A DNA stretch of 64,000 nt from a virus (Duplodnaviria; Caudoviricetes), in the IMG/VR virus record IMGVR_UViG_3300042483_000388, one strand, 5' to 3'. The notes under the pieces were generated by a model that did no database searches, was not told the origin of the DNA, and saw nothing but the letters and a program-made list of their open reading frames with translations. The translations under genes and the position numbers were made by a program. This document shows, piece by piece, positions 1-14,025 of the stretch (the stretch's first letter is position 1; each line of letters starts with the position of its first letter).

Positions 1-72
1 GAACATCAGGAACCAATGGAACATCAGGAACCAATGGAACATCAGGAACCAATGGAACATCAGGAACCAATG
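1..72 (+). repeat. Perfect 18-bp tandem repeat (GAACATCAGGAACCAATG) x4, coding GTSGTN
   Basis: Four identical 18-nt units are read directly at 1-72, followed by a partial fifth. Confidence 0.95.
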
Positions 73-3000
73 GAACATCGGGTTCAAGTGGTACTAACGG
101 AACGAATGGGACTAGCGGAACTTCAGGTACTTCAGGCACTAATGGTTCATCAGGTACTAATGGTTCATCAGGCACTAATGGTACGTCAGGCACTAATGGT
201 TCATCAGGCACTAATGGTACGTCAGGTACTAATGGGACAAACGGAACATCAGGAACCTCTGGTTCAAGTGGGACATCAGGAACCTCGGGTTCAAGTGGTA
301 CTAATGGTACGAGTGGGGTGAATGGTACTTCAGGTACTGACGGGACTTCTGGCACAAATGGTACGGACGGAACTAGTGGTACAAACGGAACAAGTGGAAC
401 ATCTGGAACGAATGGAACGAATGGAACGAATGGGACAAGCGGCACAGATGGAACATCAGGAACAAATGGTACAAGCGGAACTAACGGAACTAGTGGTACA
501 AACGGAACTTCAGGAACTAATGGAACTAATGGAACTAGTGGAACATCAGGGACAAACGGTACGAATGGAACATCAGGGACAAATGGTACTAGCGGTACCG
601 ACGGAACATCAGGTACAAATGGAACTAGCGGTAGTTCAGGAACAAACGGAACATCAGGAACAAATGGAACTAGCGGTACTGATGGAACGAATGGCACATC
701 GGGCACATCAGGAACTAATGGCACATCAGGAACTAATGGAACTAATGGGACAGATGGAACTAGTGGAACAAATGGGACTTCTGGAACTAATGGAACATCA
801 GGGACTAATGGAACATCAGGGACTAATGGAACTAATGGAACTAATGGAACTAATGGGTCTTCGGGTTCAAGCGGAACTAATGGGACATCTGGTACTAACG
901 GAACTTCGGGAACAGACGGAACTAGTGGAACTAATGGAACATCAGGATCAAGTGGTACAAATGGTACTAGCGGAACTAATGGGACTAGCGGAACTAATGG
1001 CACTAGCGGAACATCAGGATCAAGTGGTACGGACGGGACTTCAGGTACAAATGGAACTAGTGGAACTAACGGTACTTCGGGAACGGACGGGACTTCAGGT
1101 ACAAATGGAACTAGTGGAACTAACGGTACTTCGGGAACAGATGGGACATCAGGTACCAACGGAACATCAGGAACTAGCGGTACCGACGGAACATCAGGTA
1201 CAAATGGGACCAGCGGAACAAATGGAACTAGCGGTAGTTCAGGAACATCAGGAACAAACGGGACTTCAGGAACTAACGGAACATCAGGAACAAATGGTAC
1301 TGATGGTACATCGGGAACAAATGGGACTAGCGGTACTGATGGTACAAACGGAACTTCAGGAACAAATGGTACAAACGGAACTTCAGGGGCTAATGGATTT
1401 TCAACAGGTTTAGTTTATTATTTTAACCCTTCATCAGCATCTACAATTCCAACTTACTATGTTATGGATAGAAACATAGTGATAGGTGCCGGAACAACAT
1501 TAACTGCAACAGGGGGTGGAACACAACTAATAGGATCATTTTCAACAATTATTGGAGACCCTGGAATAACTACAATACCGTCAGGAAATTGGAACTTTGA
1601 GAATTACGTTGGTATGAGTTCCAATGGTGGTACTCCAAATTTATATGCTGATATATATATTAGAACAACAGGTGGTACTGAAACTTTAATTGGATCAAAT
1701 AGTGTATTACCCCACTCCATTACCGACGGTACGGTTGTGGAACTTTATTTATATTCGGTACCTGTATCCGCAACAACGGTAAATATTAATGATAGAATAG
1801 TCGTTAAGTTCTATGCAACCTCATTAGGTGGAAGAACAATGACTTGTTATTTTGAAGATGCGACAATTGCTCAGGTAACCACTTCATTATCACCATTTAT
1901 TGCGGGAACATCAGGTACAGATGGTACTTCAGGCACTAACGGTACTAGTGGTACAAATGGTACAAACGGAACTTCTGGGACTAATGGATCTAGCGGTACA
2001 AATGGAACTAACGGAACAAGTGGTACTAATGGAACCTCAGGAACTAATGGTACGGATGGTAGTTCGGGAACAAGCGGAACTTCAGGTTCATCAGGGACTA
2101 GTGGGACAAATGGAACAGATGGGTCTTCAGGTTCAAGCGGTAGCTCAGGCACTTCAGGATCTAATGGGTCTTCAGGAACAAGTGGTAGTAACGGAACAAA
2201 TGGAACGAATGGAACTTCAGGGACTAATGGAACAAACGGAACATCAGGGACTAATGGAACATCAGGAACAAATGGTACGAACGGGACTTCAGGTACAAAT
2301 GGAACTTCGGGAACAAATGGGACAAACGGAACATCAGGTACGAATGGTACTAGCGGTACTAGCGGAACTAACGGAACTAATGGAACTTCAGGTACAAATG
2401 GTACAAATGGTACGAGCGGGACCAACGGAACTTCAGGAACAAATGGTACAAATGGATCGTCAGGAACTAATGGAACTTCAGGTACAAACGGAACAAATGG
2501 AACTTCAGGTACTAATGGTACGAGCGGAACAAACGGAACAAGTGGATCATCACCTGCAGTACCAGGTTCAGATAATCAAGTTTTAACGTCAAACGGATCA
2601 GGAGGAATAGTTGCCGAATCTCTTTTAACATTTGATGGTACAAAATTAAGTGTATTGTATCAGGCTGGTGATGAAGGTGGGGAAATCCTATTAAACAAAC
2701 CTGTAACTAACACTACCATTTCAGGTACAGGGGTCACTTTTGACATATGGCAAGATAGAATTAGGTTTTTTGAACAAGGTGGTACTGCAAGAGGTGCGTT
2801 TCTTGACATAACCGCATGTGCTGCGGGTGTCGGTACAAATTTATTAACATCTGCCGGAACTTCAGGTACAAATGGAACTTCAGGAACGAATGGTACAAAC
2901 GGAACTTCAGGGACGAACGGTACTAATGGAACGTCGGGAACAAACGGTACGAATGGAACTAGCGGTACTAATGGAACATCAGGTACCAATGGAACAAATG

Positions 3001-4910
3001 GTACGTCGGGGACTAATGGAACATCAGGTACGAATGGGACTTCTGGAACTAGCGGAACTAATGGAACATCGGGAACTAACGGAACAAATGGTACTAGCGG
3101 AACAAACGGCACTAGCGGAACAAATGGAACTAATGGAACTTCAGGTACCAACGGCACTTCAGGAACAGATGGGACATCTGGTACTAACGGTACCAATGGA
3201 ACTTCAGGTACGGATGGAACTAGCGGAACATCAGGTACGGATGGAACTAGCGGAACATCAGGAACTAGTGGGGAAAACGGAATATCCGCAGGTCAAACAT
3301 ACTACTTCAATGAAAGTCAGAATAGTGATGTTTTAGGATATAAGGTATTATCAACAGAACCATCAACCGCATCAACACAAACAGTAACAACAAATTTATT
3401 AGGAATCCAACAAAACGTTTTAGTTTCTGATTACATAACACCACAATTAGGGTTTTCAGTTATTCCTGGTGGCGTACAAAGATTTCATTTACATTACTTA
3501 AAACCGGCAAGTAATGATGATATAGATGCATATGTTGAAATACAATTGGCAGATTCATCAGGAACAACTATAGGTCCAACAATAACTTCTAACATTTCAT
3601 TAATTGGTTGGGTTAGTGCGGTAATCCCTGTTGAAGTAAATGTAGATATAGTATTACCAACAACAACAATAGATCCAACAAATAGAATGATTGTTAGATT
3701 ATATTTGAGTAATAATGATGCAACGGCACATTCGGTGGTATATTATACTGAAGGTAATTCATATTATTCATTTGTTGTTACCTCAGTTGGCGCGATTGCC
3801 GGTACGTCAGGGACTTCAGGTACAAATGGAACCAGCGGTACTTCTGTTTCAGTTCCTGGATTAAACAATGAAGTTTTAACATCTGATGGATCAGGAGGTA
3901 TAGTTGCAGAAACTAATTTAATATTTAGTGGGTCACAATTATCCGTAACAGGTACGGTAGTAACTTATGGGTTTGCTCTTCCTAATATAGATACGTCAAC
4001 AGGATATTTAACCACATCAACACCTATGGTAACGTCTACTTCTATTGATTGGCTCAGTAGAATCGCCTATGATGTTTCTAGTACTTCAAGTATTAATTGG
4101 ACGAGTAGATATTTAACGGACTCATATCCTATTACTTCTGTTGATTGGGAAACTAAATATTTAAATGCGTATGACTTAACTACATCAGGGGCCACTCTTA
4201 GTGTTGATTGGAATTCTAGGTCATTATATTCATTTAGACCTCTTCCTATGCCAACTTCCACTCTTAGTGTGGATTGGCAGAATAGAACATTGAATGATAG
4301 TGGTGGTATTTCTTCAGTAGCATGGAGAGATCGCACCTTATACACACCTAATGGAACAACATCTTTAAATTGGACGGATGATACTTTTTTAGATTCAAAT
4401 GTTTATCAACGTGATTATAAATCTGCCGTTATACAAAACGCAGTATCAAATAACTATAACATTCCATATGGGTCATATTTAGGGGATGTAATTGAAGTAG
4501 ATGGTTCTACGACCTTTATGGATGCAGCAGTAACAGATGGAAATTTAGTTTATTTAGATACTAACGCCACTTGGTATCCTGTTAATCAAGCGGCAAGTGG
4601 GGCCACTTTCCTATTAGGTATTGCACATAACGTATATGCTCCTGGTGGAACAGGGTATGTTTTACTAGAAGGACATGTTGTAATTGATGATACATCATTC
4701 TCAGGACCAAATGTGCAAGGTGCGGATCATGGTTTACCAATATATATTAGAGATGGAACAACTCAGGGTCTTATGTCAACAGTCGTTCCTACTACGACTG
4801 GTGGACCAAATATAGTAAGAGTGTTAGGTCATTGTTACCAACAAAACTCAGGAACAGCAACACAATGGATGATGAAATTTAGACCATCAAATGATTGGAT
4901 AGAAATATAA
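3..4910 (+). CDS. Very long Gly-Thr-(Ser/Asn/Asp) repeat fibre-like virion protein with embedded globular domains (5'-truncated; true start lies upstream of the window)
   Basis: The frame of ORF 318..4910 is open from position 3 (aca tca gga acc aat gga = TSGTNG...). It has three long G-X-Y triplet blocks, two related ~170-aa non-repetitive domains starting G(F/I)SxGxxYYFN, two VPGxxNxVLTSxGSGGIVAE modules, and C-terminal S(I/V)(D/N)WxxR repeats. Confidence 0.8.
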   Translation, partial: TSGTNGTSGTNGTSGTNGTSGTNGTSGSSGTNGTNGTSGTSGTSGTNGSSGTNGSSGTNGTSGTNGSSGTNGTSGTNGTNGTSGTSGSSGTSGTSGSSGTNGTSGVNGTSGTDGTSGTNGTDGTSGTNGTSGTSGTNGTNGTNGTSGTDGTSGTNGTSGTNGTSGTNGTSGTNGTNGTSGTSGTNGTNGTSGTNGTSGTDGTSGTNGTSGSSGTNGTSGTNGTSGTDGTNGTSGTSGTNGTSGTNGTNGTDGTSGTNGTSGTNGTSGTNGTSGTNGTNGTNGTNGSSGSSGTNGTSGTNGTSGTDGTSGTNGTSGSSGTNGTSGTNGTSGTNGTSGTSGSSGTDGTSGTNGTSGTNGTSGTDGTSGTNGTSGTNGTSGTDGTSGTNGTSGTSGTDGTSGTNGTSGTNGTSGSSGTSGTNGTSGTNGTSGTNGTDGTSGTNGTSGTDGTNGTSGTNGTNGTSGANGFSTGLVYYFNPSSASTIPTYYVMDRNIVIGAGTTLTATGGGTQLIGSFSTIIGDPGITTIPSGNWNFENYVGMSSNGGTPNLYADIYIRTTGGTETLIGSNSVLPHSITDGTVVELYLYSVPVSATTVNINDRIVVKFYATSLGGRTMTCYFEDATIAQVTTSLSPFIAGTSGTDGTSGTNGTSGTNGTNGTSGTNGSSGTNGTNGTSGTNGTSGTNGTDGSSGTSGTSGSSGTSGTNGTDGSSGSSGSSGTSGSNGSSGTSGSNGTNGTNGTSGTNGTNGTSGTNGTSGTNGTNGTSGTNGTSGTNGTNGTSGTNGTSGTSGTNGTNGTSGTNGTNGTSGTNGTSGTNGTNGSSGTNGTSGTNGTNGTSGTNGTSGTNGTSGSSPAVPGSDNQVLTSNGSGGIVAESLLTFDGTKLSVLYQAGDEGGEILLNKPVTNTTISGTGVTFDIWQDRIRFFEQGGTARGAFLDITACAAGVGTNLLTSAGTSGTNGTSGTNGTNGTSGTNGTNGTSGTNGTNGTSGTNGTSGTNGTNGTSGTNGTSGTNGTSGTSGTNGTSGTNGTNGTSGTNGTSGTNGTNGTSGTNGTSGTDGTSGTNGTNGTSGTDGTSGTSGTDGTSGTSGTSGENGISAGQTYYFNESQNSDVLGYKVLSTEPSTASTQTVTTNLLGIQQNVLVSDYITPQLGFSVIPGGVQRFHLHYLKPASNDDIDAYVEIQLADSSGTTIGPTITSNISLIGWVSAVIPVEVNVDIVLPTTTIDPTNRMIVRLYLSNNDATAHSVVYYTEGNSYYSFVVTSVGAIAGTSGTSGTNGTSGTSVSVPGLNNEVLTSDGSGGIVAETNLIFSGSQLSVTGTVVTYGFALPNIDTSTGYLTTSTPMVTSTSIDWLSRIAYDVSSTSSINWTSRYLTDSYPITSVDWETKYLNAYDLTTSGATLSVDWNSRSLYSFRPLPMPTSTLSVDWQNRTLNDSGGISSVAWRDRTLYTPNGTTSLNWTDDTFLDSNVYQRDYKSAVIQNAVSNNYNIPYGSYLGDVIEVDGSTTFMDAAVTDGNLVYLDTNATWYPVNQAASGATFLLGIAHNVYAPGGTGYVLLEGHVVIDDTSFSGPNVQGADHGLPIYIRDGTTQGLMSTVVPTTTGGPNIVRVLGHCYQQNSGTATQWMMKFRPSNDWIEI
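1029..1136 (+). repeat. Perfect 54-bp tandem duplication inside the Gly-Thr repeat coding region
   Basis: ACGGACGGGACTTCAGGTACAAATGGAACTAGTGGAACTAACGGTACTTCGGGA occurs at 1029-1082 and 1083-1136. Confidence 0.9.
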
Positions 4911-5271: not shown

Positions 5272-8196
5272 TTATCTGTTATCTATATAGATGATTACTT
5301 CACTATAGTATTCTATAAAATGATCATTCCATAGATCCCATTTAATATCTACACCATCTACGGAGAAAACTTGTATGTTATCAAATTGTGGAAAGATATT
5401 ATCTCTAAACCATCTGAACTTACATTTATGAAAACTATCATCATCTCTCATATGAAATTCCGTTACAATTTTTGGAATTGTTTTTAAAAACTCAATATTA
5501 CTTTGTTGGAACACATCGTATTCACCACCTTCACAATCACACTTTAAGAAATCTATTTTATCAATTCCGTTTTCATCTAAAAATTCTTTGAATGTAAATG
5601 TTGGAACACTCTCACTAACATTATCCCAAGTGATATGAATTTTCTTTTTATCTGTGATTGCCCCTTGAATAATTTTTACATTATCTTGACCAACATTTTT
5701 ATGAAGTATACCAACTTGGTATGATAATGGTTCCACAACATAACATTGTTTTGGATTCTTTGGTAAGATTTTATATGTGAACGGACCTAAGGACGCACCT
5801 AAATCAACAACAACATCACCTTCTTCAACTTCAAAATGTCTTTCATATGTATTATCTTCAAATATCTCTTTAATTGCAGCATCAACATACCAACCACTTT
5901 TTTTACCCCAGTCAAATTCAACCTCATCAAAATTTTCTTCCGTTACCCCTTCATTATTAATAATTCTATTTATTTGTTTAATTACCATATCAGAACTTAT
6001 TCGATTTGTACATTCAAACATTCGATCGGTATTTTTATGTAAAGGACACCAATTCCAGTCGCCAGCATCTAATCTTTCTGAATTAAAACATCCGTGACAA
6101 ACACTTTCATTAATAACTCTATATGTGTCTAAAGTTGTTTCTGCCCATTTCTCACTAAACCCTGAAATCAAAACAATAGGTAATTTACAAGCCCAAGCCA
6201 ACCAAGATAAACCAGACCCTAAACCAATAAAAAACTCACAACTTGATAGGTCATTAATAACTTCTTGTAGGTTTCCTCCTTTATAAATTGTTACGCCTTC
6301 AGGATAATGGTTACCCATATAGCCATCACCTTCTTTAGAATAGACCATGCATTCATATCCCAAATTATTAAGATGATCTATAACCGCTTGCCAAGCGTCA
6401 GGATTATTCCAATACTTTGCCTGTGCCGTAGAATGAAAACCAATACCCACTTTTTTCTTTTTAGGTGTGTTAGGTAATTTTAATAGTGGTCTAACTTCTT
6501 CATAATCTAAACCTAATATATCCGTTGCCGTTTTTTGTAATGGCATTTTTTTAAAATCAAATGGGTGTTTGTTTGCGTCAAATTTACCATCTTCATTATA
6601 AAACCAACCTAAATTATATTGTGCGTGTATGTTTGGTATTAATTCGCCAGGTTCAACAAACTCAATTTCAGGATACTGATCTTTAAACAAACTATTAAGG
6701 AATGTCGATACTATCGGTTTGCAACCATGTTTTTTTCTAAATACCTCACAATAAGGAACCCAAGCCATTGTATCACCTAATGATTTTGATCCGAATGAAA
6801 TATATACTCTCTTATCTTTTAGATCTAATGTCTCATCATAAATTACTTCACCATTTTCTTCAACTGTTGTTCTCCATTTAATGAAATATTCTTTATTTAA
6901 TTTAACCCAACTATTAATTGACAATTCATTTTGATATGATATTTCATTTTTATCATCATAATATTTAATATTCAATTTGTTTTCTGTGGTTCCTTGTATT
7001 TCAAAATAAGGTTGGGTAACATAATGTCTAACAAAGGTATAATCTTTGGTTAAAGGTTTGTTTTGGGTAATGTTTATATTTGTAACTGCGTTATAAAAAT
7101 TCAATAAATCTTCACCAAATGTATCATCAGGTAATATTTTATAAACGTCCTTATTTTCAATAAGTTCAACCAATTGTTTTGATATGTTTTTAACATCACC
7201 TTCTATTGGTGTTATATATCCGTCAAACATACCCATGTATTGTGGTAAATCTCTTGCAAGGATTTTCATTCCATAGTTGATTGATTCTCTAACAACCAAC
7301 GGATTACATTCCCAAGTTGAGTTAAACATTAAAACATCGCAAGCCGTCATGAATTTCTCAACGTCAGATCGTTCCCCCCATACTTTAACATTAGAAGGAA
7401 GGTCTTTCATAATAGGACCCCAATAGTCTTCAAAGTTTGGAGCTTGGTTCCCAATAAAATGAAATTCAATATCTGAGTTTGATTCAATTAATTCTTTTGC
7501 AACCTCAACACCTTCACCTTGATTTTTACCACTTGTCCATAACCCAACATTAAGTACGTGAGTTTTAAACATATCCAAACCAAGTTCATTTCTTACTTTA
7601 ATTTTTTCAATAAGTGGTACTTGATTAAAATCACCATAGATTTCATTCTCCTCTAAAATTTTAGTTACCTTATTCTCAATTGGGTATAACGATAAAAACT
7701 TAATTGGTGTTTCATTTAAAAACGTTTCCTTTAAATGATAAGGGGTAACAAAACAATATGCCTCAGGATTGAATTTTTTATGTGTTTGCGGATTAAACCA
7801 AACATTATGACAAGTCTCAACCATTTTCCAAGTCCTATCATTTGAATAAAGTTGATTTAACAATGGTAGCGGAATTTTATTAAAACTTTCAAACCCTTCA
7901 ACCATCTCTTCTGAATGGACAATATCAATATGATTGTTTTTAATAATATCAATTAACTCATATTTTCTTTTTGTGTTACTTGTATCCCCTAAACTAAAAA
8001 AATGACCTTCACCCAATATATCAATTATTTTATCTCGTTGAACAACATATGTATTACTAAACTGAGAATACTCAACCAAAAAGATTTCAATTTGGTCTTT
8101 GAATTTTTGAAGTTCTTGAATTCTTTTTAATACGAATTGGGGTTGTCCTCCAGTTGAAAGATGAGGTGTAAGATATAATAGTTTAATTTTTTTCAT
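5272..8196 (-). CDS. Tri-domain enzyme: GT4-like glycosyltransferase + TibC/AAH-type autotransporter O-heptosyltransferase + FkbM-family methyltransferase
   Basis: N-terminal GT-B motifs (PHLSTGGQPQ; GERSDVEKFMTACDVLMFNSTWECNPLVVRES). Middle domain with TibC-like motifs (DETLDLKDKRVYISF..SLGD..WVPY; QAKYWNN; FFIGLGSGLSWLAWA..P.VLISGFS; CHGC..WCP.HKNTDR.FECT). C-terminal VVDLGASLG and IDFLKCDCEGGE. Start moved from 8214 to the MKKIK ATG at 8196. Confidence 0.85.
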   Translation of the reverse strand: MKKIKLLYLTPHLSTGGQPQFVLKRIQELQKFKDQIEIFLVEYSQFSNTYVVQRDKIIDILGEGHFFSLGDTSNTKRKYELIDIIKNNHIDIVHSEEMVEGFESFNKIPLPLLNQLYSNDRTWKMVETCHNVWFNPQTHKKFNPEAYCFVTPYHLKETFLNETPIKFLSLYPIENKVTKILEENEIYGDFNQVPLIEKIKVRNELGLDMFKTHVLNVGLWTSGKNQGEGVEVAKELIESNSDIEFHFIGNQAPNFEDYWGPIMKDLPSNVKVWGERSDVEKFMTACDVLMFNSTWECNPLVVRESINYGMKILARDLPQYMGMFDGYITPIEGDVKNISKQLVELIENKDVYKILPDDTFGEDLLNFYNAVTNINITQNKPLTKDYTFVRHYVTQPYFEIQGTTENKLNIKYYDDKNEISYQNELSINSWVKLNKEYFIKWRTTVEENGEVIYDETLDLKDKRVYISFGSKSLGDTMAWVPYCEVFRKKHGCKPIVSTFLNSLFKDQYPEIEFVEPGELIPNIHAQYNLGWFYNEDGKFDANKHPFDFKKMPLQKTATDILGLDYEEVRPLLKLPNTPKKKKVGIGFHSTAQAKYWNNPDAWQAVIDHLNNLGYECMVYSKEGDGYMGNHYPEGVTIYKGGNLQEVINDLSSCEFFIGLGSGLSWLAWACKLPIVLISGFSEKWAETTLDTYRVINESVCHGCFNSERLDAGDWNWCPLHKNTDRMFECTNRISSDMVIKQINRIINNEGVTEENFDEVEFDWGKKSGWYVDAAIKEIFEDNTYERHFEVEEGDVVVDLGASLGPFTYKILPKNPKQCYVVEPLSYQVGILHKNVGQDNVKIIQGAITDKKKIHITWDNVSESVPTFTFKEFLDENGIDKIDFLKCDCEGGEYDVFQQSNIEFLKTIPKIVTEFHMRDDDSFHKCKFRWFRDNIFPQFDNIQVFSVDGVDIKWDLWNDHFIEYYSEVIIYIDNR

Positions 8197-8247
8197 ACTA
8201 TAAAAATAAAACATACATTTTAATTGTGAAGTTCATATCATTATAGA

Positions 8248-9195
8248 ATGAAAGATGTTTGTGTTGATGTGTTAGGATGTAGATCGTTAGGGGATACCTT
8301 AGCCGTTACACCAACTTTAAGAAAACTTTATAATTCTTACGGTAAAAAAATATCTGTCGCAACTCATCACCCCGAAATTTTTAAAAACAATCCTTACGTA
8401 GATAATATTTTTAATGAAATTACAGACGACATTAAAAATGATTATGAAGTATTTGAATCCTTTAATATTGGATACCACCCAAACGGTGTTTGTTATAAAC
8501 ATAACGCAATGGATATTAGACAATTTCATGCGGTTAATTTAGGGTTTATGTTGACCAGAGATGAAATGTCAATGGACTATTTTCCTGATGAGGTAGAATT
8601 AATTGAGGGGTTACCTGAAAAATATGTTTTAATTCACCCCGTTCAAAATTGGAATTCAAGAACATGGGATGAAAAAAAATGGCAAATGTTAACAAAACTC
8701 TTAAATGAAAGAGGTATTGCCGTTATTTCTGTTGGAAAAGATTCATCAGAACTTGGTGGTTCAAATGTGGATAAACCCGTTTTTAATTTTAATATTGATA
8801 TTGGTTTGAATTTAATGAACCAAACAACCTTATCTCAAACATGGTGGCTAATTAATAGTGCAATGTGTTTCATTACTATGGATTCAGGATTACTTCATTT
8901 AGCAGGAACAACAGACTCAGAAATAATCCAACTTGGAAGTTCAATACATCCTCAATTTAGAGCACCATATAGAAAAAATAATCAAGGTCATAAATACCAT
9001 TATGTTCTTGGTGGTTGTGGTTTACATTGTGCATCAGATATTAAATACGGAGTTAAAGAATGGAAATCAATACAAGGTATACCATCACTCGTTAATTGTT
9101 TAGAAAGAAAAGAAACATTTGAATGTCACCCCAACCCAATTATTATTTATAATAAAGTTTTGGAAATATTAGATTTAGAATATTTATGTAGATAA
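8248..9195 (+). CDS. GT9-family (heptosyltransferase-like) glycosyltransferase
   Basis: SLGDTLAVTPTLRKL, HPEIFKNNPYVD, LIHPVQNWNSRTW and FITMDSGLLHLAGTT are GT9 motifs; Cys-rich C-terminus. Confidence 0.8.
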   Translation: MKDVCVDVLGCRSLGDTLAVTPTLRKLYNSYGKKISVATHHPEIFKNNPYVDNIFNEITDDIKNDYEVFESFNIGYHPNGVCYKHNAMDIRQFHAVNLGFMLTRDEMSMDYFPDEVELIEGLPEKYVLIHPVQNWNSRTWDEKKWQMLTKLLNERGIAVISVGKDSSELGGSNVDKPVFNFNIDIGLNLMNQTTLSQTWWLINSAMCFITMDSGLLHLAGTTDSEIIQLGSSIHPQFRAPYRKNNQGHKYHYVLGGCGLHCASDIKYGVKEWKSIQGIPSLVNCLERKETFECHPNPIIIYNKVLEILDLEYLCR

Positions 9196-9210: not shown

Positions 9211-9510
9211 ATGGCAAACCAAATTCAAATAAATTCAATATCTGGAACTTCACCATTTGATATCTATGTATGTGATGTAACCATATCGTATTGTTTTTTT
9301 GTTTCAGGAATCACCACAACACCATATACGTTTAATGTTCCTCCACCTTTAGAGTCTATAACACCAATTATTTTAAAAATTATAGATGCTAATGATTGTG
9401 AAAAAATATTCTTACTATCTTGTGGGGAAATATACGGAAAAGAATTTGAAGGTTTTGAAGTATTTTTATTTCAAGACTCATCAATTTTTTTATTCGAAGG
9501 TCCTCCTTAA
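9211..9510 (+). CDS. Hypothetical protein (99 aa)
   Basis: Clean ORF between two glycosyltransferase genes; no recognisable motif. Confidence 0.6.
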   Translation: MANQIQINSISGTSPFDIYVCDVTISYCFFVSGITTTPYTFNVPPPLESITPIILKIIDANDCEKIFLLSCGEIYGKEFEGFEVFLFQDSSIFLFEGPP

Positions 9511-9565: not shown

Positions 9566-10810
9566 ATGAATACAATATTTATACAAATCGCCTCCTATCG
9601 TGATCCCCAACTTAGTTTAACAATCTCAGATTGCATTAAGAACTCTAAATACCCCAAAAATTTGGTATTTGGTATTTGTAATCAATATCACCCTGACGAT
9701 GAATTTAATATTGATGAATATCAGAATGACAAAAGATTTAGAATTGAAAATGTTTTATATTCAGATTCTAAAGGGGCTTGTTGGGCTCGTAACTTATTAC
9801 AACAAAGATATAGTGGAGAAACTTACACATTACAAATAGATTCTCATATGAGATTTTCTCCCGATTGGGACATTGAGATGATTAAAATGGTTAAACAACT
9901 TCAAAAGAAAGGACATAAAAAACCTTTATTAACGGGTTATGTTTCATCATTTGATCCCGAAAATGATCCACAGGGAAGAGTAAATGAACCATGGAGAATG
10001 TCTTTTGATAGATTTACACCTGAAGGTGTTGTGTTCTTTTTACCTGAGGTTATCCCTGGATGGAAAAAATTAAAAGAACCTATCCCTTCCAGATTCTATT
10101 CCGCACATTTTTGTTTTACATTGGGGCAATTTGTCAATGAAGTCCAACACGACAAAGATTATTATTTTCACGGAGAAGAAATTTCTATTGGCGTAAGATC
10201 CTTCACATATGGGTATGATTTATTTCATCCTCACAAAGTTTTAATTTGGCACGAATATACTCGAAAAAACAGAACAAAAAGTTGGGATGACGATAAAGAT
10301 TGGCATAAGAAAAACACAGCTTGTCATATAAAGAACAGACAACTTCTTGGTGTTGATGGAGAAGTTTATGATGGAGACTACTCACAATACTTTGGTAATG
10401 AAAGAACCATTAGAGATTACGAAAGATATTCCGGAATTTTATTTTCTAAAAGAGCTGTTCAACAAGATACTTTAGATAAGAAATACCCACCCAACGATTA
10501 CCCATATTCGTCCGAAACAGAATGGATTAATTCTTTTGCCACAATATTTAAACATTGTATAGACATAAATTTAAATAGTGTTCCAGAAACAGATTATGAT
10601 TTTTGGGTTGTTGCCTTCCATAACGCAAAAGATGAAACAATATATAGACAAGATGCTGACGCAAACGAAATTTTAAGAATAAAAAATGATCCCGATGGAT
10701 ATGGAAAAATATGGAGAGAGTTTAATGCAACCGAAATACCAAAATATTGGGTGGTATGGCCACACTCCATATCTAAAGACTGGTGTGAAAGAATAGTAGG
10801 TAATTTATGA
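9566..10810 (+). CDS. GT60-like GlcNAc transferase (Skp1-hydroxyproline GlcNAc-transferase family)
   Basis: IFIQIASYRD, GACWARN, LQIDSHMRF (DxH metal motif), FHGEEISIGVRSFTYGYD and WHEY match the family signature as I recall it. Confidence 0.8.
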   Translation: MNTIFIQIASYRDPQLSLTISDCIKNSKYPKNLVFGICNQYHPDDEFNIDEYQNDKRFRIENVLYSDSKGACWARNLLQQRYSGETYTLQIDSHMRFSPDWDIEMIKMVKQLQKKGHKKPLLTGYVSSFDPENDPQGRVNEPWRMSFDRFTPEGVVFFLPEVIPGWKKLKEPIPSRFYSAHFCFTLGQFVNEVQHDKDYYFHGEEISIGVRSFTYGYDLFHPHKVLIWHEYTRKNRTKSWDDDKDWHKKNTACHIKNRQLLGVDGEVYDGDYSQYFGNERTIRDYERYSGILFSKRAVQQDTLDKKYPPNDYPYSSETEWINSFATIFKHCIDINLNSVPETDYDFWVVAFHNAKDETIYRQDADANEILRIKNDPDGYGKIWREFNATEIPKYWVVWPHSISKDWCERIVGNL

Positions 10811-12474
10811 TAACATTAGTAACGGGTTTATGGGACATAGGTAGAGGTGACCTTAGTGAAGGTTGGTCAAGATCGTACCAACATTATCTTAATAAGTTTG
10901 AGGACTTACTTAAGGTAGAGAACAATTTAATCATCTTTGGTGATGAGGAATTAGAAAAGTTTGTTAAAGAGAGACGACAAGACCACAACACCCAATTTAT
11001 TGTTAGAGACTTAACTTGGTTTAAAAATAATGAATTTTATAATCAAATACAATCAATAAGGACAAACCCAAAATGGTATAATCTTGCGGGGTGGTTAACG
11101 GACTCAACTCAAGCAAAATTGGAAATGTATAATCCATTGGTTATGTCAAAAATGTTTATCCTTCACGACGCTTTGCTCTTGGATAAGTTTGTCTCAGAAA
11201 AACTATATTGGATTGATGCTGGATTATCAAATACTGTTAATTTAGGTTATTTCACAAAAGACAATGTATTACCAAATATCGATAATCTTTTTGATAAGTT
11301 CACGTTTATTTGTTTTCCATATCAAGCCAACACAGAGATACACGGATTTGATATTAAACAAATGGATAAATACACTAGAGATAGAGTTGATAAAGTTTGT
11401 CGTGGAGGTTTCTTTGGTGGACCAATTGAGGACATAAGACAAATGAATACCTTGTATTATAATTTAATTAAAGATACATTATCAAAAGGTTTAATGGGAA
11501 CAGAAGAAAGTTTATTCTCAATTCTATTATATAACAACCCAACCTTAATTGATTATGTTGAAATAAATGGTGACGGATTATTGTATAAGTTTTTTGAAGA
11601 TGTTAAAAACAATGATGTAAAAATCAAAACAATTTCAAGACCGAACGAAGTTATTAAGAAAACAAATGGTGGTGTTGGTTTATATGTTATAACATTTAAC
11701 AGCCCAAAACAATTTGAAACCTTAATTAAAAGTATGTTAGATTATGATCCGGACTTTATTAATAAGACAAAGAAGTTTTTATTGGATAACTCCACAGACC
11801 TATCAACAACTCCGAGATATAAAGAATTGTGTGAAGAGTATAACTTTGAACATATTAAGAAAGATAATATAGGTATTACTGGTGGTAGAGTGTTTGTTGC
11901 CGAACATTTTGATGAAACTGATTTGGACTTTTATTTTTTCTACGAAGACGACATGCTATTTTATTCAAAACCAAACTCAAAATGTAAGAACGGATTTAGC
12001 AGAAATTGTGATAAATTATATGACAAAGCTCTTCATATTATGAAGAAAGAGGAATTAGATTTTCTCAAGTTAAACTTTACGGAATTTTTTGGTTCGCACG
12101 AAAAACAGTGGTCGTGGTATAACGTGAGCAATGAATTTAGAAAAGAACATTGGCCGTTTAATCAAAACTTGCCGGTGCAAGGTCAAGACCCAAACTCACC
12201 AAATTTAGAATTTAAAAACATTAAATCACATAATGGGTTATCATATGCGACTGGTGAAATCTTTTTAAGCAATTGGCCGATCGTGTTAAATAGAGACGGC
12301 AATTACAAATGTTATTTAGAAACAAAATTTGCCCATCCTCACGAACAAACGGTGATGAGTCAATGTTATCAAGAAACCGTTAAGGGTAGAGTTAAGTCGG
12401 CAGTTTTATTACTTACACCAACAGAACACAACCGTTTCGATTTTTATGAGGCACATTTGAGAAAAGAATGTTAA
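10807..12474 (+). CDS. HtrL/YibB(WlaTC)-family glycosyltransferase fused to a GT2-like domain
   Basis: N-terminal ITLVTGLWDIGR, YNPLVMSKMF, YWIDAG, GGFFGG and GTEESLF. C-terminal LYVITFNSP, LLDNSTD and FYEDDM. ATGA overlap with the upstream gene. Confidence 0.7.
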   Translation: MITLVTGLWDIGRGDLSEGWSRSYQHYLNKFEDLLKVENNLIIFGDEELEKFVKERRQDHNTQFIVRDLTWFKNNEFYNQIQSIRTNPKWYNLAGWLTDSTQAKLEMYNPLVMSKMFILHDALLLDKFVSEKLYWIDAGLSNTVNLGYFTKDNVLPNIDNLFDKFTFICFPYQANTEIHGFDIKQMDKYTRDRVDKVCRGGFFGGPIEDIRQMNTLYYNLIKDTLSKGLMGTEESLFSILLYNNPTLIDYVEINGDGLLYKFFEDVKNNDVKIKTISRPNEVIKKTNGGVGLYVITFNSPKQFETLIKSMLDYDPDFINKTKKFLLDNSTDLSTTPRYKELCEEYNFEHIKKDNIGITGGRVFVAEHFDETDLDFYFFYEDDMLFYSKPNSKCKNGFSRNCDKLYDKALHIMKKEELDFLKLNFTEFFGSHEKQWSWYNVSNEFRKEHWPFNQNLPVQGQDPNSPNLEFKNIKSHNGLSYATGEIFLSNWPIVLNRDGNYKCYLETKFAHPHEQTVMSQCYQETVKGRVKSAVLLLTPTEHNRFDFYEAHLRKEC

Positions 12475-12502
12475 ACCCCAGTATTTATTGTTAAACTAAT
12501 TG

Positions 12503-13555
12503 ATGGAATGGTTTATTAAGAAAGGAGCGACGCTTCCTACATTAAAATTAAATATATTTAAAGACGGTAGAAGCGATTATAATAGATCTATGAAAGATCT
12601 AAATCAAGATGATATATTCTTTTCTATGGTTAATACCGAAACAGATATCCCAAGAATAACATCAAGACCGGCAGGTGTTATGGAAAAACCAAACATTGAC
12701 CCAACTTTAGAACCGGATTACTACGTTTACTATCAGTTCACACCTTTTGATACCAAAGTTGTTGGCAGATATAAAGCACAATTTTTAATTAGAAACCAAA
12801 CTGGTGTTTTGGTTTTACCATTAAATGATGAACTATATATAAATGTTACGGATAGTTTCATTATTGACGACTTACCATATGTTAGTTGTTATGTGGTTGA
12901 CTTTCCTTGTTGTGTTGGTTCAGGAGGTGTTAATCCAGGACCAGGTCCAGGTCCTTTCCCAACAACAACGACCACAACAATAATACCATATACAACCACT
13001 TCAACAACAAGTATACCATATACAACCACTTCAACAACTTTAGGTCCTGAACCAACAGCATATACAGAATGGGTTATATCGTTTGGGACACCATCTTCAA
13101 CAAATGCGTGCTCTGAGTCGGGCGAATATGTTACCGCATACACACCTGTAATGTCTGCATTAACAATAGGTCAAACCCTTTGGGCGACACCAGAATTCAA
13201 TACATACGCTTTTGGGACTAATGGTTCTTGGTTTAAAATTCTAAAAAGAAATGGATTGTCTTATTCACCAAATACTGTTATATATGTTGGTCAATATAGT
13301 TTACTATTCGGTAATTACACTCAAGTAATTTATTCACATGAGTGTGGAACTTCATTTCCTTGTAAATGTTTTACATATACTAAAACACAAAATAATCTGT
13401 TTAATTCGTTATATGTTAATTGCAATGGTAATATTGTAGGTATAACTTTACCTTTTAATGGATCTCAAACTTTCTGTGCGGCCTTTACACAACCGTATGA
13501 TTATATATCTGTAACGGGCGGAAATAACAACTGTGTTGGTGGTATTTGTCCTTAA
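12503..13555 (+). CDS. Putative BppU-like (baseplate upper/adaptor) structural protein with Thr-rich linker and Cys-rich C-terminal domain
   Basis: The N-terminal ~135 aa are paralogous to 13594..14025 (FIxxxATLPxLKL; IFFSMVNxETxIPxI; YYVYYxFT; VGRYxxQF). They are followed by PGPGPGP and TTTTT/PYTTTSTT repeats. The BppU assignment is from fold-level resemblance only. Confidence 0.5.
   Translation: MEWFIKKGATLPTLKLNIFKDGRSDYNRSMKDLNQDDIFFSMVNTETDIPRITSRPAGVMEKPNIDPTLEPDYYVYYQFTPFDTKVVGRYKAQFLIRNQTGVLVLPLNDELYINVTDSFIIDDLPYVSCYVVDFPCCVGSGGVNPGPGPGPFPTTTTTTIIPYTTTSTTSIPYTTTSTTLGPEPTAYTEWVISFGTPSSTNACSESGEYVTAYTPVMSALTIGQTLWATPEFNTYAFGTNGSWFKILKRNGLSYSPNTVIYVGQYSLLFGNYTQVIYSHECGTSFPCKCFTYTKTQNNLFNSLYVNCNGNIVGITLPFNGSQTFCAAFTQPYDYISVTGGNNNCVGGICP
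12983..13038 (+). repeat. 26-bp direct repeat with 30-nt period, coding IPYTTTSTT x2
   Basis: ATACCATATACAACCACTTCAACAAC at 12983-13008 and 13013-13038. Confidence 0.9.
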
Positions 13556-13593
13556 CTAAAATCACAACTAAAGTATTTATAAATAAAGTATTG

Positions 13594-14025
13594 ATGGAAT
13601 TTTTCATAGGACAAAACGCAACTCTCCCCCTTTTAAAGTTACAGGTCGTTAAAGATGGTAACAACGACTATGACGATATGATGCAGTTTATTGAGAGATC
13701 TACAATATTTTTCTCAATGGTTAACATAGAAACAGGAATACCAAAGATAATGACTAAATCGGCCGGATTTGTCGAAAAACTTGATATGAACCCAAATGCA
13801 AGTCCAGAATATTATGTTTATTATAGATTTACAAAAAATGATACAAGTAAGGTGGGAAGATATGAAGGTCAGTTTTTATTTAGAAATGACACAGGAACAT
13901 TGGTATTACCGATTAGAGAACAATTATTTATTAATATAAGTGAAAGTTATTTGTCAGACGATATAGAACATAATAATTGTTATACCTTAGAGTTCCCTTG
14001 TTGTATTCCACCCCCAATTCTATAA
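13594..14025 (+). CDS. Putative BppU-like structural protein, paralog of 12503..13555
   Basis: Clear similarity to the upstream ORF, including the ending C(Y)xxxFPCC. Start placed at ATG 13594, downstream of the TATTTAT motif. Confidence 0.55.
   Translation: MEFFIGQNATLPLLKLQVVKDGNNDYDDMMQFIERSTIFFSMVNIETGIPKIMTKSAGFVEKLDMNPNASPEYYVYYRFTKNDTSKVGRYEGQFLFRNDTGTLVLPIREQLFINISESYLSDDIEHNNCYTLEFPCCIPPPIL

What the first reader, a model, noticed from the sequence alone, without database searches (positions are those of the whole stretch)
9566..10810. Eukaryote-style Skp1 GlcNAc-transferase (GT60) homolog in a tailed phage
Seen: the IASYRD / QIDSH / FHGEE / GYD motifs. Established: GT60 enzymes are characterised in Dictyostelium and Toxoplasma (O2-sensing Skp1 modification) and in trypanosome mucin O-glycan initiation. 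Inference: this could be the initiating enzyme for O-glycans on Thr-rich phage linkers. An extra C-terminal ~110-aa domain (KHCIDINL..YDFWVVAFH) may recognise the acceptor.
Basis: partly seen in the sequence, partly recalled or inferred. Interest (0 to 1): 0.7.

Follow-up and report, generated by a model that had tools for sequence, protein, structure and literature searches.

The report
Phage mucin-type protein glycosyltransferase (GT60)
A large uncultured lake phage carries a genuine member of the enzyme family that starts mucin-type sugar chains on threonine in protists; here and in hundreds of phages and bacteria it is paired with a second sugar enzyme and sits beside genes for threonine/proline-rich proteins, so it probably sugar-coats the phage's own proteins, though no sugar has been measured.

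Summary
ORF 9566-10810 (+) encodes a 414-aa soluble protein with all the quoted motifs. It matches Pfam PF11397 (CAZy GT60) at 220 bits against a cut-off of 21. The AlphaFold model (pLDDT 95.5) resembles animal and Toxoplasma polypeptide GalNAc-transferases (GT27, Z 19.6-22.8) more than generic GT2 enzymes (Z 17.9 or less).

"Eukaryote-style" is misleading. The family is abundant in prokaryotes: at least 571 bacterial species, at least 570 IMG/VR phage contigs, PHROG 24687 and four isolated jumbo phages. This copy groups with phage and Bacteroidota genes.

New here:
- The gene overlaps (ATGA) a 555-aa HtrL_YibB + GT-A-like protein. The pair recurs in 75 of 80 related phage loci, in XacN1 and RAS14, and in 25 of 80 bacterial loci from several phyla.
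- 66 of 80 phage loci carry Thr-rich proteins within 7 kb of the pair.
- In bacteria the neighbours are twin-arginine-leader Thr/Pro-repeat proteins or T6SS VgrG-(TP)n spikes. In four genomes, (TP)5 tracts occupy only 1-4 places each, and half or more of those places lie at the GT60 locus.
- In the window, the only dense poly-Thr tract is in the gene directly after the pair.

The C-terminal extra domain is a generic FN3-like sandwich. Protein O-glycosylation of Thr-rich tracts is therefore well supported by context but unproven. The scan has noted the same pairing in at least 28 other genomes.

The parts
9566..10810 (+). GT60 (PF11397) glycosyltransferase gene, 414 aa. The GT-A catalytic domain spans residues 1 to about 320; the FN3-like domain spans residues about 326-414.
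9839..9847 (+). D92-S93-H94, the DxH metal/nucleotide-sugar motif shared by GT60 and GT27.
   Evidence: Nearly invariant in 43 homologues. It lies at the end of strand 87-91 in the model. The DxH motif of GT27/GT60 is described in PMC7185993.
10172..10180 (+). G203-E204-E205 (within FHGEE); E204 and E205 are invariant. I read this as the family's counterpart of the GT-A 'xED' motif, which is an inference.
   Evidence: motif concept from PMC7185993
10250..10252 (+). H229 (in WHEY), an invariant candidate C-terminal metal-binding His.
   Evidence: its role is inferred, not shown
10541..10807 (+). C-terminal FN3/Ig-like beta-sandwich domain (residues about 326-414).
   Evidence: Model pLDDT 93.9. 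Best matches are FN3 domains at Z 7.6, rmsd 2.7 A, 78 residues aligned; this is in the range the tool calls generic.
10807..12474 (+). Partner gene, 555 aa. It has an N-terminal HtrL_YibB domain (PF09612, residues 2-256) and a C-terminal GT-A-like half. Its start overlaps the GT60 stop (ATGA).
   Evidence: Co-occurrence with GT60.
12500..13555 (+). Candidate acceptor, 351 aa. It has a phage-only N-terminal domain, then a PGPGPGPFP-TTTTTT-IIPYTTTSTT-SIPYTTTSTT linker (residues 150-187, nt 12947-13060), then a Cys-rich C-terminal domain.
   Evidence: the only dense Thr tract in the 64-kb window. Homologues in related phages.
13546..14025 (+). Paralogue of the N-terminal domain of the previous gene. 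It has no Thr linker here, but a TP-rich linker in the 80%-identical phage L001.
9211..9510 (+). 99-aa ORF directly upstream. It corresponds to the N-terminal Cys-containing domain of a phage protein family that in relatives continues into (TP)n linkers and variable distal domains.
8248..9195 (+). GT9-like (heptosyltransferase-fold) glycosyltransferase in the same gene island.
5272..8214 (-). 980-aa fusion of a GT4 domain, a TibC/Aah-type protein O-heptosyltransferase domain (TIGR04414, 283 bits against a cut-off of 200) and an FkbM methyltransferase. It is a second protein-directed glycosyltransferase in the island.
3..4910 (+). Giant collagen-like fibre protein, open at the 5' end of the window. 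It holds 253 G-T-S/N/D triplets and 128 N-x-S/T sequons and is another possible glycosylation target.

Best explanation
The gene encodes a soluble, cytoplasmic, retaining GT-A glycosyltransferase of family GT60. I infer that it transfers the first sugar, most likely a HexNAc from a UDP-sugar (GlcNAc by family precedent), onto Thr or Ser hydroxyls in the poly-Thr and Thr-Pro linkers of phage-encoded modular proteins while these are made in the infected cell. The translationally coupled HtrL_YibB + GT-A protein, together with whatever glycosyltransferases are inserted between the two genes in a given phage, would then extend or decorate that sugar. The result would be mucin-like, glycan-coated linkers on virion appendages. 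Such a coat could stiffen them, protect them from proteases, or change adhesion and recognition.

Shown here:
- family membership;
- a fold closest to polypeptide GalNAc-transferases;
- conserved catalytic motifs;
- the conserved gene pair;
- a statistically strong association with Thr/Pro-rich protein genes in phages and bacteria.

Inferred, not shown: the donor sugar, the acceptor identity, that the Thr-rich proteins are virion parts, and the biological benefit.
For: 1. Family. PF11397 scores 220 bits against a cut-off of 21. D92-x-H94, E204-E205 and H229 are invariant or nearly so across 43 diverse homologues. The characterised GT60 enzymes are polypeptide GlcNAc-transferases: T. cruzi TcOGNT1 makes GlcNAc-alpha-1-O-Thr on mucins (PMC9472816). 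[quoted passage not shown]

2. Fold. The model has pLDDT 95.5. The 29 best structural matches are all polypeptide GalNAc-transferases (Z 19.6-22.8, 263-315 residues aligned, rmsd mostly 3.3-3.7 A). The next, generic GT2-type enzymes reach Z 17.9 or less.

3. Window synteny. The only dense Thr tract among about 40 genes in the 64-kb window lies in the gene that starts 26 nt after the GT60/HtrL pair.

4. Phage synteny.
- 75 of 80 related IMG/VR loci keep the HtrL fusion 0-6 kb downstream of GT60.
- 66 of 80 have Thr-rich proteins within 7 kb. Of these genes, 51 end within 1 kb upstream of GT60 and 18 start within 1 kb downstream of the partner gene.
- 22 of 23 C-terminal tails of the downstream protein family begin with poly-Thr or TP linkers.
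- The upstream family runs from a domain like the window's 99-aa ORF straight into (TP)n.

5. Bacterial synteny.
- 21 of 80 genome loci have a Thr/Ser/Pro-rich ORF within 2.5 kb.
- Many of these have a twin-arginine-like leader.
- Six loci also carry a PqqD-type peptide-recognition protein.
- In Ralstonia and Achromobacter the gene lies in a T6SS cluster beside a VgrG with a C-terminal (TP)n tail.

6. Whole-genome control. (TP)5-coding tracts occupy only 1, 1, 2 and 4 places in four genomes of 2.8-6 Mb. The GT60 locus holds 1/1, 1/1, 1/2 and 2/4 of those places.

7. Neighbour. An adjacent gene has a TibC/Aah-type protein O-heptosyltransferase domain above its curated cut-off, so protein glycosylation is already implied for this island.

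8. Topology. The protein has no signal peptide or membrane segment. This fits modification of proteins assembled in the cytoplasm.
Against: - No biochemical or mass-spectrometric data exist for any bacterial or phage GT60.
- 14 of 80 related phage loci show no Thr-rich neighbour within 7 kb. 40 of 63 members of the downstream protein family lack a C-terminal tail of 20 aa or more, although most of those loci have a Thr-rich gene upstream.
- Only about a quarter of bacterial loci show a Thr/Pro neighbour.
- The partner's HtrL_YibB family is otherwise known only from LOS/LPS core loci and has no assigned activity (PMC4172580). The island also holds GT9-fold enzymes, so a non-protein acceptor is not excluded.
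- The Thr-rich neighbours have not been shown to be virion proteins. Pfam and PHROGs gave nothing for them, and the protein atlas gave only a weak BppU_N lead (score 0.88).
- Thr/Pro linkers are common in these phages' modular proteins, so part of the phage association could reflect genome organisation rather than function. The bacterial whole-genome control is what argues against this.
Confidence: 0.6

Rival explanations
1. The GT60/HtrL pair and the neighbouring GT9-type enzymes modify a host envelope glycan (LPS/LOS core, capsule or another glycolipid) during infection. The purpose could be to block superinfection or to alter receptors. On this view the Thr-rich neighbours are unrelated structural genes.
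For: HtrL_YibB proteins are otherwise found in LOS/LPS core loci (PMC4172580; TIGR02192 and PF09612 matches). GT9-fold enzymes sit in the same island. Phage-encoded envelope-modifying glycosyltransferases are a known kind (my own knowledge).
Against: The fold is closest to polypeptide transferases, with a clear gap to polysaccharide GT2 enzymes. Every characterised GT60 enzyme acts on polypeptides. The bacterial loci pair the enzyme with Thr/Pro-repeat proteins, PqqD peptide-recognition proteins or VgrG-(TP)n. The gene families that recur in these neighbourhoods did not look like the flippase, polymerase or priming-transferase genes of polysaccharide clusters, but only a few neighbours were scanned against Pfam. 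The GT9-fold domain in the large neighbour is of the protein-heptosylating TibC type.
Confidence: 0.15
2. The enzyme glycosylates a host cytoplasmic protein as a takeover or regulatory modification, in the manner of Skp1 modification by Gnt1 or of toxin-type glycosyltransferases. It does not act on phage structural proteins.
For: It is a soluble cytoplasmic enzyme. The founding GT60 member Gnt1 modifies a cytoplasmic regulatory protein (my own knowledge; named in the Pfam description of PF11397). PHROGs files the family under 'moron, auxiliary metabolic gene and host takeover'.
Against: No prolyl hydroxylase or other oxygenase was found among the window proteins scanned. The conserved partner and the variable glycosyltransferase inserts imply construction of an oligosaccharide rather than a single regulatory sugar. 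The tight, recurrent linkage to Thr-rich phage genes and to bacterial Thr/Pro-repeat proteins is not explained.
Confidence: 0.1
3. The pair glycosylates modified bases in phage DNA, as T4 glucosylates hydroxymethylcytosine, to evade restriction.
For: The pair lies about 1.7 kb upstream of the DNA polymerase gene in a T4-like myovirus. The C-terminal half of the partner gives a sub-threshold hit to the TET-associated glycosyltransferase family PF20691 (E = 0.029, 14.8 bits against a cut-off of 27.5).
Against: The PF20691 hit is below threshold. No hydroxymethylase or TET/JBP-like gene was seen in the window. To my knowledge, known DNA glucosyltransferases of T-even phages have a different fold (GT-B). 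Chromosomal bacterial homologues sit beside Thr/Pro-repeat proteins and in T6SS clusters, not beside DNA-modification genes.
Confidence: 0.04

Closest known systems
Trypanosoma cruzi TcOGNT1/2 (CAZy GT60), UDP-GlcNAc:polypeptide alpha-GlcNAc-transferases that start mucin O-glycans on Thr
   Same: Same Pfam/CAZy family. Same DxH-type GT-A catalytic core. The likely acceptors are likewise Thr-rich mucin-like tracts (PMC9472816).
   Different: The protist enzymes are Golgi membrane proteins acting in the secretory pathway. This one is soluble and cytoplasmic, carries a C-terminal FN3-like domain and is coupled to an HtrL_YibB + GT-A partner. Its activity is untested.
Dictyostelium/Toxoplasma Gnt1 (GT60), the cytoplasmic Skp1 hydroxyproline alpha-GlcNAc-transferase
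   Same: Same family and also cytoplasmic. It is followed by a multi-domain extending glycosyltransferase (PgtA in protists, from my own knowledge), which is a functional parallel to the two-domain partner here.
   Different: No Skp1-type target and no prolyl 4-hydroxylase were seen in the window. The neighbours are Thr-rich, not a single Hyp site. The partner is unrelated in family (HtrL_YibB). The phage gene groups with bacterial genes; no eukaryotic sequences could be included in the tree.
Animal and Toxoplasma polypeptide GalNAc-transferases (GT27)
   Same: Closest solved structures (Z 19.6-22.8). Shared DxH motif (PMC7185993). Two-domain layout: a catalytic domain plus a C-terminal beta-rich domain.
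   Different: No sequence-level match to any solved structure. The C-terminal domain is an FN3-like sandwich of about 90 aa, not a ricin-type beta-trefoil lectin. There is no membrane anchor.
Phage-encoded virion glycosylation in mycobacteriophages (Freeman et al. 2023, cited as ref. 80 in PMC12582341)
   Same: Phage-encoded glycosyltransferases modify the phage's own virion proteins in the host cytoplasm. This is the precedent that tailed phages do this.
   Different: A different phage group and host. The paper itself could not be read here, so the enzyme families were not compared directly. No GT60 or HtrL pair has been reported in the literature I could search.
Cytoplasmic glycosylation of bacterial adhesins before export (TibC/Aah heptosylation of autotransporters; GtfA/GtfB on serine-rich repeat adhesins; HMW1C)
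   Same: Soluble glycosyltransferases modify repeat-rich proteins in the cytoplasm and are encoded next to their substrates. This fits the bacterial loci with leader-bearing Thr/Pro-repeat proteins. A TibC-type domain lies in the window itself.
   Different: Different enzyme families (GT9-like, GT4, GT41). The acceptor repeats here are Thr/Pro-rich. The comparison for GtfA/B and HMW1C rests on my own knowledge.

Membership tests
CAZy GT60 / Pfam PF11397 (GlcNAc) | Whole-protein score above the Pfam gathering threshold | tested here: met
   220 bits against a cut-off of 21, E = 8.2e-65, two stretches covering profile positions up to 346 of 352.
CAZy GT60 / Pfam PF11397 (GlcNAc) | GT-A fold with a DxH motif in place of DxD, plus a later metal-binding His | tested here: met
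   D92-S93-H94 is nearly invariant and H229 is invariant in 43 homologues. The GT-A model has pLDDT 95.5. DxH is described as specific to GT27 and GT60 in PMC7185993. Metal binding itself was not tested.
CAZy GT60 / Pfam PF11397 (GlcNAc) | Structural kinship with GT27 polypeptide transferases rather than generic GT2 enzymes | tested here: met
   The top 29 matches are all ppGalNAc-transferases at Z 19.6-22.8. The next families reach Z 17.9 or less.
CAZy GT60 / Pfam PF11397 (GlcNAc) | Retaining transfer of GlcNAc from UDP-GlcNAc | not testable with these tools
   Needs an enzyme assay; the donor cannot be read from the sequence.
CAZy GT60 / Pfam PF11397 (GlcNAc) | Polypeptide (Thr, Ser or Hyp) acceptor | tested here: inconclusive
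   Only contextual evidence: linkage to Thr/Pro-rich protein genes in phages and bacteria. There is no direct evidence.
Skp1-Gnt1 pathway (PhyA prolyl hydroxylase, then Gnt1, then PgtA and later enzymes) | Partner prolyl 4-hydroxylase (2OG-Fe(II) oxygenase) encoded with the transferase | tested here: not met
   No oxygenase family appeared among the window proteins scanned with Pfam or PHROGs. Only this 64-kb window could be examined, and a few ORFs were scanned with PHROGs only or not at all.
GT27 polypeptide GalNAc-transferases | C-terminal ricin-type beta-trefoil lectin domain and a type II membrane anchor | tested here: not met
   The C-terminal domain is a sandwich of about 90 aa whose best matches are FN3 domains. 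No hydrophobic segment is present. No sequence match to GT27 chains was found.
PHROG 24687 (phage glycosyltransferase) | Full-length profile match including the C-terminal domain | tested here: met
   E = 1.7e-157; residues 1-411 against profile positions 1-406 of 409. XacN1, Xoo-sp13, CM1 and RAS14 homologues are 42-44% identical over 99% of the length.

The most novel reading that the evidence does not exclude
GT60 plus the HtrL_YibB/GT-A fusion form the core of a widespread, uncharacterised prokaryotic 'mucin-type' O-glycosylation system. It would build glycans in the cytoplasm on Thr/Pro-repeat tracts of three kinds of protein: secreted proteins (exported already glycosylated, possibly through Tat), T6SS VgrG spikes, and phage tail appendages. 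Phages would have captured it at least twice from their hosts' phyla to give their fibres a glycan coat.
Probability: 0.4. Interest if true: 0.8.

Novelty: new variant of a known kind. Interest (0 to 1): 0.62.

Why it matters
To my knowledge and in the literature I could search, GT60 has been studied experimentally only in protists. If the reading is right, the same chemistry that starts trypanosome mucin glycans is used by a large group of freshwater and soil phages and bacteria on their own Thr/Pro linkers.

That would matter in four ways:
- It would give a function to thousands of 'hypothetical' or 'cell wall' glycosyltransferase annotations.
- It would help explain why poly-Thr and TP linkers are so common in phage fibres.
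- It would extend virion glycosylation from mycobacteriophages to T4-like and jumbo phages.
- It would point to glycosylated T6SS spikes and to secreted proteins that are glycosylated before export.

The enzyme is small and soluble, and cultured phages (XacN1, Xoo-sp13, CM1, RAS14) and bacteria (Ralstonia, Paraburkholderia, Sphingobacterium, Tunturiibacter) carry homologues, so the idea can be tested directly.

Tried and rejected
- **Sequence search of solved structures.** The single protein and a 43-sequence profile found no homologue. A Gnt1 structure that I recalled from memory did not appear, so I do not cite one.
- **Own genome.** None is held for this window.
- **Near-identical DNA in isolated phages.** None found.
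- **tRNAs.** None in the window.
- **Promoter and terminator scan.** Counts equal those of shuffled sequence, so it is uninformative.
- **Exact-protein look-ups of two bacterial homologues for precomputed neighbour annotation.** Not on record. I used my own ORF calling instead, which is noisy in high-GC loci.
- **Literature.** Searches for GT60 or PF11397 in phages or bacteria found only an auxiliary-gene list and general GT-A reviews. Freeman et al. 2023 could not be opened. PMC8402811 turned out not to concern phage protein glycosylation.
- **Eukaryotic GT60 sequences.** None could be obtained by reference, so the tree has no eukaryotes and no root. I cannot say whether the prokaryotic or the protist branch is ancestral.
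- **Complex prediction (enzyme with substrate or partner).** Not run. The tool's own guidance says such pairs are rarely informative, and my report does not claim binding.
- **DNA-glycosylation idea.** Considered and set aside (see rival explanations).
Full report
**What is there**

ORF 9566-10810 (+) is intact, with an ATG start, 414 codons and a TGA stop.
- IASYRD at residues 8-13
- QIDSH at 90-94
- FHGEE at 201-205
- GYD at 216-218
- KHCIDINL at 329-336
- YDFWVVAFH at 344-352

It matches Pfam PF11397 ('GlcNAc', CAZy GT60) with E = 8.2e-65 and 220 bits against a gathering score of 21. It matches PHROG 24687 ('glycosyltransferase') over its full length with E = 1.7e-157. It has no hydrophobic segment, so it is a soluble cytoplasmic protein.

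The window is part of a large T4-like myovirus. It encodes a tail sheath, gp19-like tube, gp25 and gp6-like baseplate proteins, family-B DNA polymerase, DnaB-type helicase, UvsX-like recombinase and ribonucleotide reductase. GC content is about 32%. No near-identical isolate exists in the phage collection. Close relatives occur on lake-metagenome contigs of up to 157 kb fetched here, and the index lists carrier contigs up to 505 kb.

**Fold and catalytic apparatus**

A 43-sequence alignment of diverse homologues shows invariant or nearly invariant residues:
- D13
- D92-S93-H94
- E204-E205
- R211
- H229
- a 'WPxS...W' signature in the C-terminal domain

AlphaFold2 on that alignment gives pLDDT 95.5 and pTM 0.90. 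Foldseek and a VIA-align second look both place the catalytic domain (residues 1 to about 320) closest to polypeptide GalNAc-transferases (GT27). The 29 best entries are all ppGalNAc-Ts from human, mouse, Drosophila and Toxoplasma. They score Z 19.6-22.8 with 263-315 aligned residues and rmsd mostly 3.3-3.7 A. There is then a step down to generic GT2-type enzymes at Z 17.9 or less.

This matches the published view.

No solved structure is detectable by sequence.

**The C-terminal domain**

Residues about 326-414, folded alone, give pLDDT 93.9. The best matches are fibronectin type III domains at Z 7.6, rmsd 2.7 A and 78 residues aligned. The tool itself rates this range as generic.

The domain is kept in the phage clade and in most bacterial homologues, where tblastn matches run to residue 406-414. 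In the Burkholderiales T6SS-linked proteins, matches end at residue 308-397. In the large proteins with two to four GT60 stretches, most matches also end near residue 300-320. A role in holding the acceptor is only an analogy with the lectin domain of GT27.

**Not 'eukaryote-style'**

The family is very common in prokaryotes and their viruses:
- more than 6,700 close relatives among the 8,000 candidates scored in the 5.8-billion-protein collection;
- 4,304 clusters at 50% identity with E of 1e-3 or better;
- many protein-atlas clusters that are 76-97% viral;
- UniProt entries already named 'Glycosyltransferase, GlcNAc [uncultured Caudovirales phage]';
- four isolated jumbo phages at 42-44% identity over the full length: XacN1, Xoo-sp13, CM1 and RAS14.

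The literature already states that GT60 occurs 'only in prokaryotes and protists' (PMC7185993).

In a maximum-likelihood tree of 101 sequences (quick search, unrooted, no eukaryotes available), the window's protein lies in a phage clade. That clade sits inside the half of the tree that holds all 16 Bacteroidota sequences; Saprospiraceae and Lewinellaceae are the nearest cellular rows. The Xanthomonas and Stenotrophomonas phage proteins are sister to Burkholderiales proteins with SH-aLRT support of 99. Phage copies thus track the phylum of their likely hosts, which suggests at least two separate exchanges. It also hints that this phage infects a Bacteroidota host.

**A conserved two-gene core**

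The GT60 stop overlaps the start of the next gene (TTATGATA). That gene (10807-12474) encodes 555 aa. It has an N-terminal HtrL_YibB domain (PF09612, 65.5 bits against 24.1). Its C-terminal half is GT-A-like to my eye but has no significant Pfam match; the only hit is a sub-threshold one to PF20691.

The pair recurs widely:
- in the closest relatives L001, L004 and L005, and partly in L002;
- in 75 of 80 IMG/VR loci, always 0-6 kb downstream of GT60, with other genes (glycosyltransferase-like in L001) inserted between the two in many cases;
- in XacN1 and RAS14, at 38-41% identity over the full length and about 4 kb downstream, beyond a carbamoyltransferase;
- in 25 of 80 bacterial genome loci from Bacteroidota, Gemmatimonadota, Acidobacteriota, Myxococcota, Binatota and Pseudomonadota.

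HtrL_YibB proteins are otherwise known only as uncharacterised members of LOS/LPS core loci (PMC4172580).

**Association with Thr/Pro-rich proteins in phages**

In the window, the only dense Thr tract among about 40 genes is the segment PGPFP-TTTTTT-IIPYTTTSTT-SIPYTTTSTT (residues 150-187) of gene 12500-13555. That gene starts 26 nt after the pair.

Homologues of its N-terminal domain follow the pair in 57 of the 80 phage loci. Where they have a C-terminal extension of 20 aa or more (23 proteins), 22 of the extensions begin with poly-Thr or TP linkers.

The 99-aa ORF just upstream of GT60 (9211-9510) corresponds to the N-terminal domain of another family. In relatives that family continues directly into (TP)n linkers and variable distal modules.

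Overall, 66 of 80 phage loci have at least one Thr-rich protein within 7 kb. There are 120 such genes among 1,005. Of these, 51 end within 1 kb upstream of GT60 and 18 start within 1 kb downstream of the partner gene.

**Association with Thr/Pro-rich proteins in bacteria**

21 of 80 bacterial loci have a Thr/Ser/Pro-rich ORF within 2.5 kb of the module. That is 6.2 per 100 kb, against 2.3 per 100 kb in the outer flanks.

Many of these are small proteins with a twin-arginine-like leader (for example NRRKALKTILG, GRRKLLQALG, SRRQFVKYL) followed by long TP, TPS or SPTPTT repeats. The Saprospiraceae protein ends in a T9SS sorting domain.

Six loci add a PqqD-type peptide-recognition protein, and four of these also have a P-loop protein. 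Several loci appear to hold a second GT60 copy.

In Ralstonia and Achromobacter the gene lies inside a T6SS cluster. I identified the TssE/F/G-like genes and the PAAR gene from sequence features alone. The VgrG matches Phage_GPD, Gp5_trimer_C and Phage_base_V and ends in a long (TP)n tail.

**Whole-genome control for the bacterial association**

I counted the places where a (Thr-Pro)5-coding DNA pattern occurs in five of these genomes.

| Genome | Size | Places with the pattern | Places inside the GT60 locus |
|---|---|---|---|
| Congregibacter | 4.2 Mb | 1 | 1 |
| Luminiphilus | 2.8 Mb | 1 | 1 |
| Ralstonia | 6.0 Mb | 2 | 1 |
| Acidimicrobiaceae | 4.5 Mb | 4 | 2 |
| Alphaproteobacteria MAG (L066) | 4.1 Mb | 0 (its repeats are interrupted) | - |

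The chance that a single tract falls within a 13-kb window of a 3-6 Mb genome is about 0.2-0.5%. The linkage is therefore not accidental.

**Other protein-directed glycosylation in the island**

The 980-aa neighbour on the opposite strand (5272-8214) contains a TibC/Aah-type autotransporter O-heptosyltransferase domain. It scores 283 bits against a curated cut-off of 200. GT4 and FkbM methyltransferase domains flank it.

Upstream of that lies a collagen-like protein of more than 1,635 aa with 253 G-T-S/N/D triplets. Which enzyme, if any, serves which substrate cannot be decided here.

**Most likely mechanism**

GT60 would bind a UDP-HexNAc through the DxH/His metal site. It would transfer the first sugar, with retention, to Thr or Ser in unstructured poly-Thr and TP linkers of phage appendage proteins in the cytoplasm. 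The coupled HtrL/GT-A protein and lineage-specific inserted enzymes (other glycosyltransferases, or a carbamoyltransferase in XacN1-like loci) would then elaborate the glycan.

Family, fold, motifs, gene coupling and linkage are shown. Donor, acceptor, glycan and benefit are inferred. I put this at about 0.6.

The rivals are:
- modification of a host envelope glycan (about 0.15; supported mainly by the LOS association of HtrL);
- modification of a host protein (about 0.1);
- DNA base glycosylation (about 0.04).

**Novelty**

The gene family assignment is already made in public databases, and phage virion glycosylation is known from mycobacteriophages (ref. 80 in PMC12582341). I found no published description of the following:
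- the conserved GT60 + HtrL pair;
- its systematic flanking by Thr/Pro-linker proteins in T4-like and jumbo phages;
- the parallel bacterial contexts (leader-bearing TP-repeat proteins with PqqD, and VgrG-(TP)n).

This scan's own notes record the same GT60/Thr-Pro pairing in at least 28 other genomes. Those notes are unchecked AI readings and I do not count them as evidence. I reached the linkage from my own loci and controls before reading them.

Noticed in passing
L067:8270-11134 (-) and L062:11052-12953 (-): In Ralstonia sp. 25C and an Achromobacter MAG, a T6SS VgrG spike (Phage_GPD, Gp5_trimer_C and Phage_base_V in L067) ends in a long (Thr-Pro)n tail. It lies beside PAAR-like and effector-sized genes and within 1-4 kb of a GT60 gene inside the T6SS cluster. 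This suggests a possibly glycosylated T6SS spike. In Ralstonia this tail is one of only two (TP)5 places in the 6-Mb genome.
   Followed up: partly
L055:2816-9500; also L029, L031, L034, L038, L044, L079: Bacterial clusters from Halieaceae, Acidobacteriota, Myxococcota, Binatota and Tepidamorphaceae combine several elements: what look like two GT60 paralogues, HtrL-family proteins, a PqqD-type peptide-recognition protein, and often a P-loop protein of about 287 aa. Several (L031, L038, L055, L079) also have a small twin-arginine-leader protein made mostly of TP repeats. They look like a dedicated substrate-plus-enzyme cassette.
   Followed up: partly
L086:10415-12712 (XacN1), L087:10518-12818 (RAS14), L007:1625-3196, L014:1516-3087: A NodU/CmcH-type carbamoyltransferase (Carbam_trans_N and Carbam_trans_C in L007) sits between GT60 and the HtrL fusion. 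It occurs in Xanthomonas and Stenotrophomonas jumbo phages and in Saprospiraceae and Cytophagaceae MAGs. This hints at carbamoylated glycans in those lineages.
   Followed up: partly
window 5272-8214 (-): A 980-aa fusion of a GT4 domain, a TibC/Aah-type protein O-heptosyltransferase domain (TIGR04414, 283 bits against 200) and an FkbM methyltransferase. It is 83% identical in L001-L003 but was not found within 10 kb of GT60 in L004 and L005.
   Followed up: partly
window 3-4910 (+): A collagen-like protein open at the 5' end, with 253 G-T-S/N/D triplets, 128 N-x-S/T sequons and only 35 Pro in 1,636 residues. GC is about 44% against about 32% elsewhere. Globular modules interrupt the repeats.
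   Followed up: no
window 18450-20660 (-): A 736-aa protein with a complete Fe/Mn superoxide dismutase (Sod_Fe_N and Sod_Fe_C) embedded at residues 166-354, next to the gp13-like neck gene.
   Followed up: no
L098:4995-6932, L126:4299-6941: In related phages the protein directly upstream of GT60 has three parts: a small N-terminal Cys-containing domain, then (TP)n linkers, then long arrays of 'FNQPIGSWDVSNVTNM' repeats. From memory these resemble DUF285/BspA-like repeats; this was not tested.
   Followed up: no
one search list (P0123, P0124, P0125 and others): Metagenomic proteins of 1,000-2,461 aa contain two to four GT60 stretches in tandem. In most of them the best match ends near residue 300-320 of the query, so they lack the FN3-like domain.
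   Followed up: no
window 22490-23452 (+): A 320-aa protein with a NUMOD3 motif, a likely homing-endonuclease-type DNA-binding protein. It lies between the SNF2-type helicase gene and the structural genes.
   Followed up: no
window 25292-28645 (+): The tail sheath protein is unusually long (1,117 aa). Only residues 901-1115 match sheath profiles, so about 900 N-terminal residues are unexplained.
   Followed up: no
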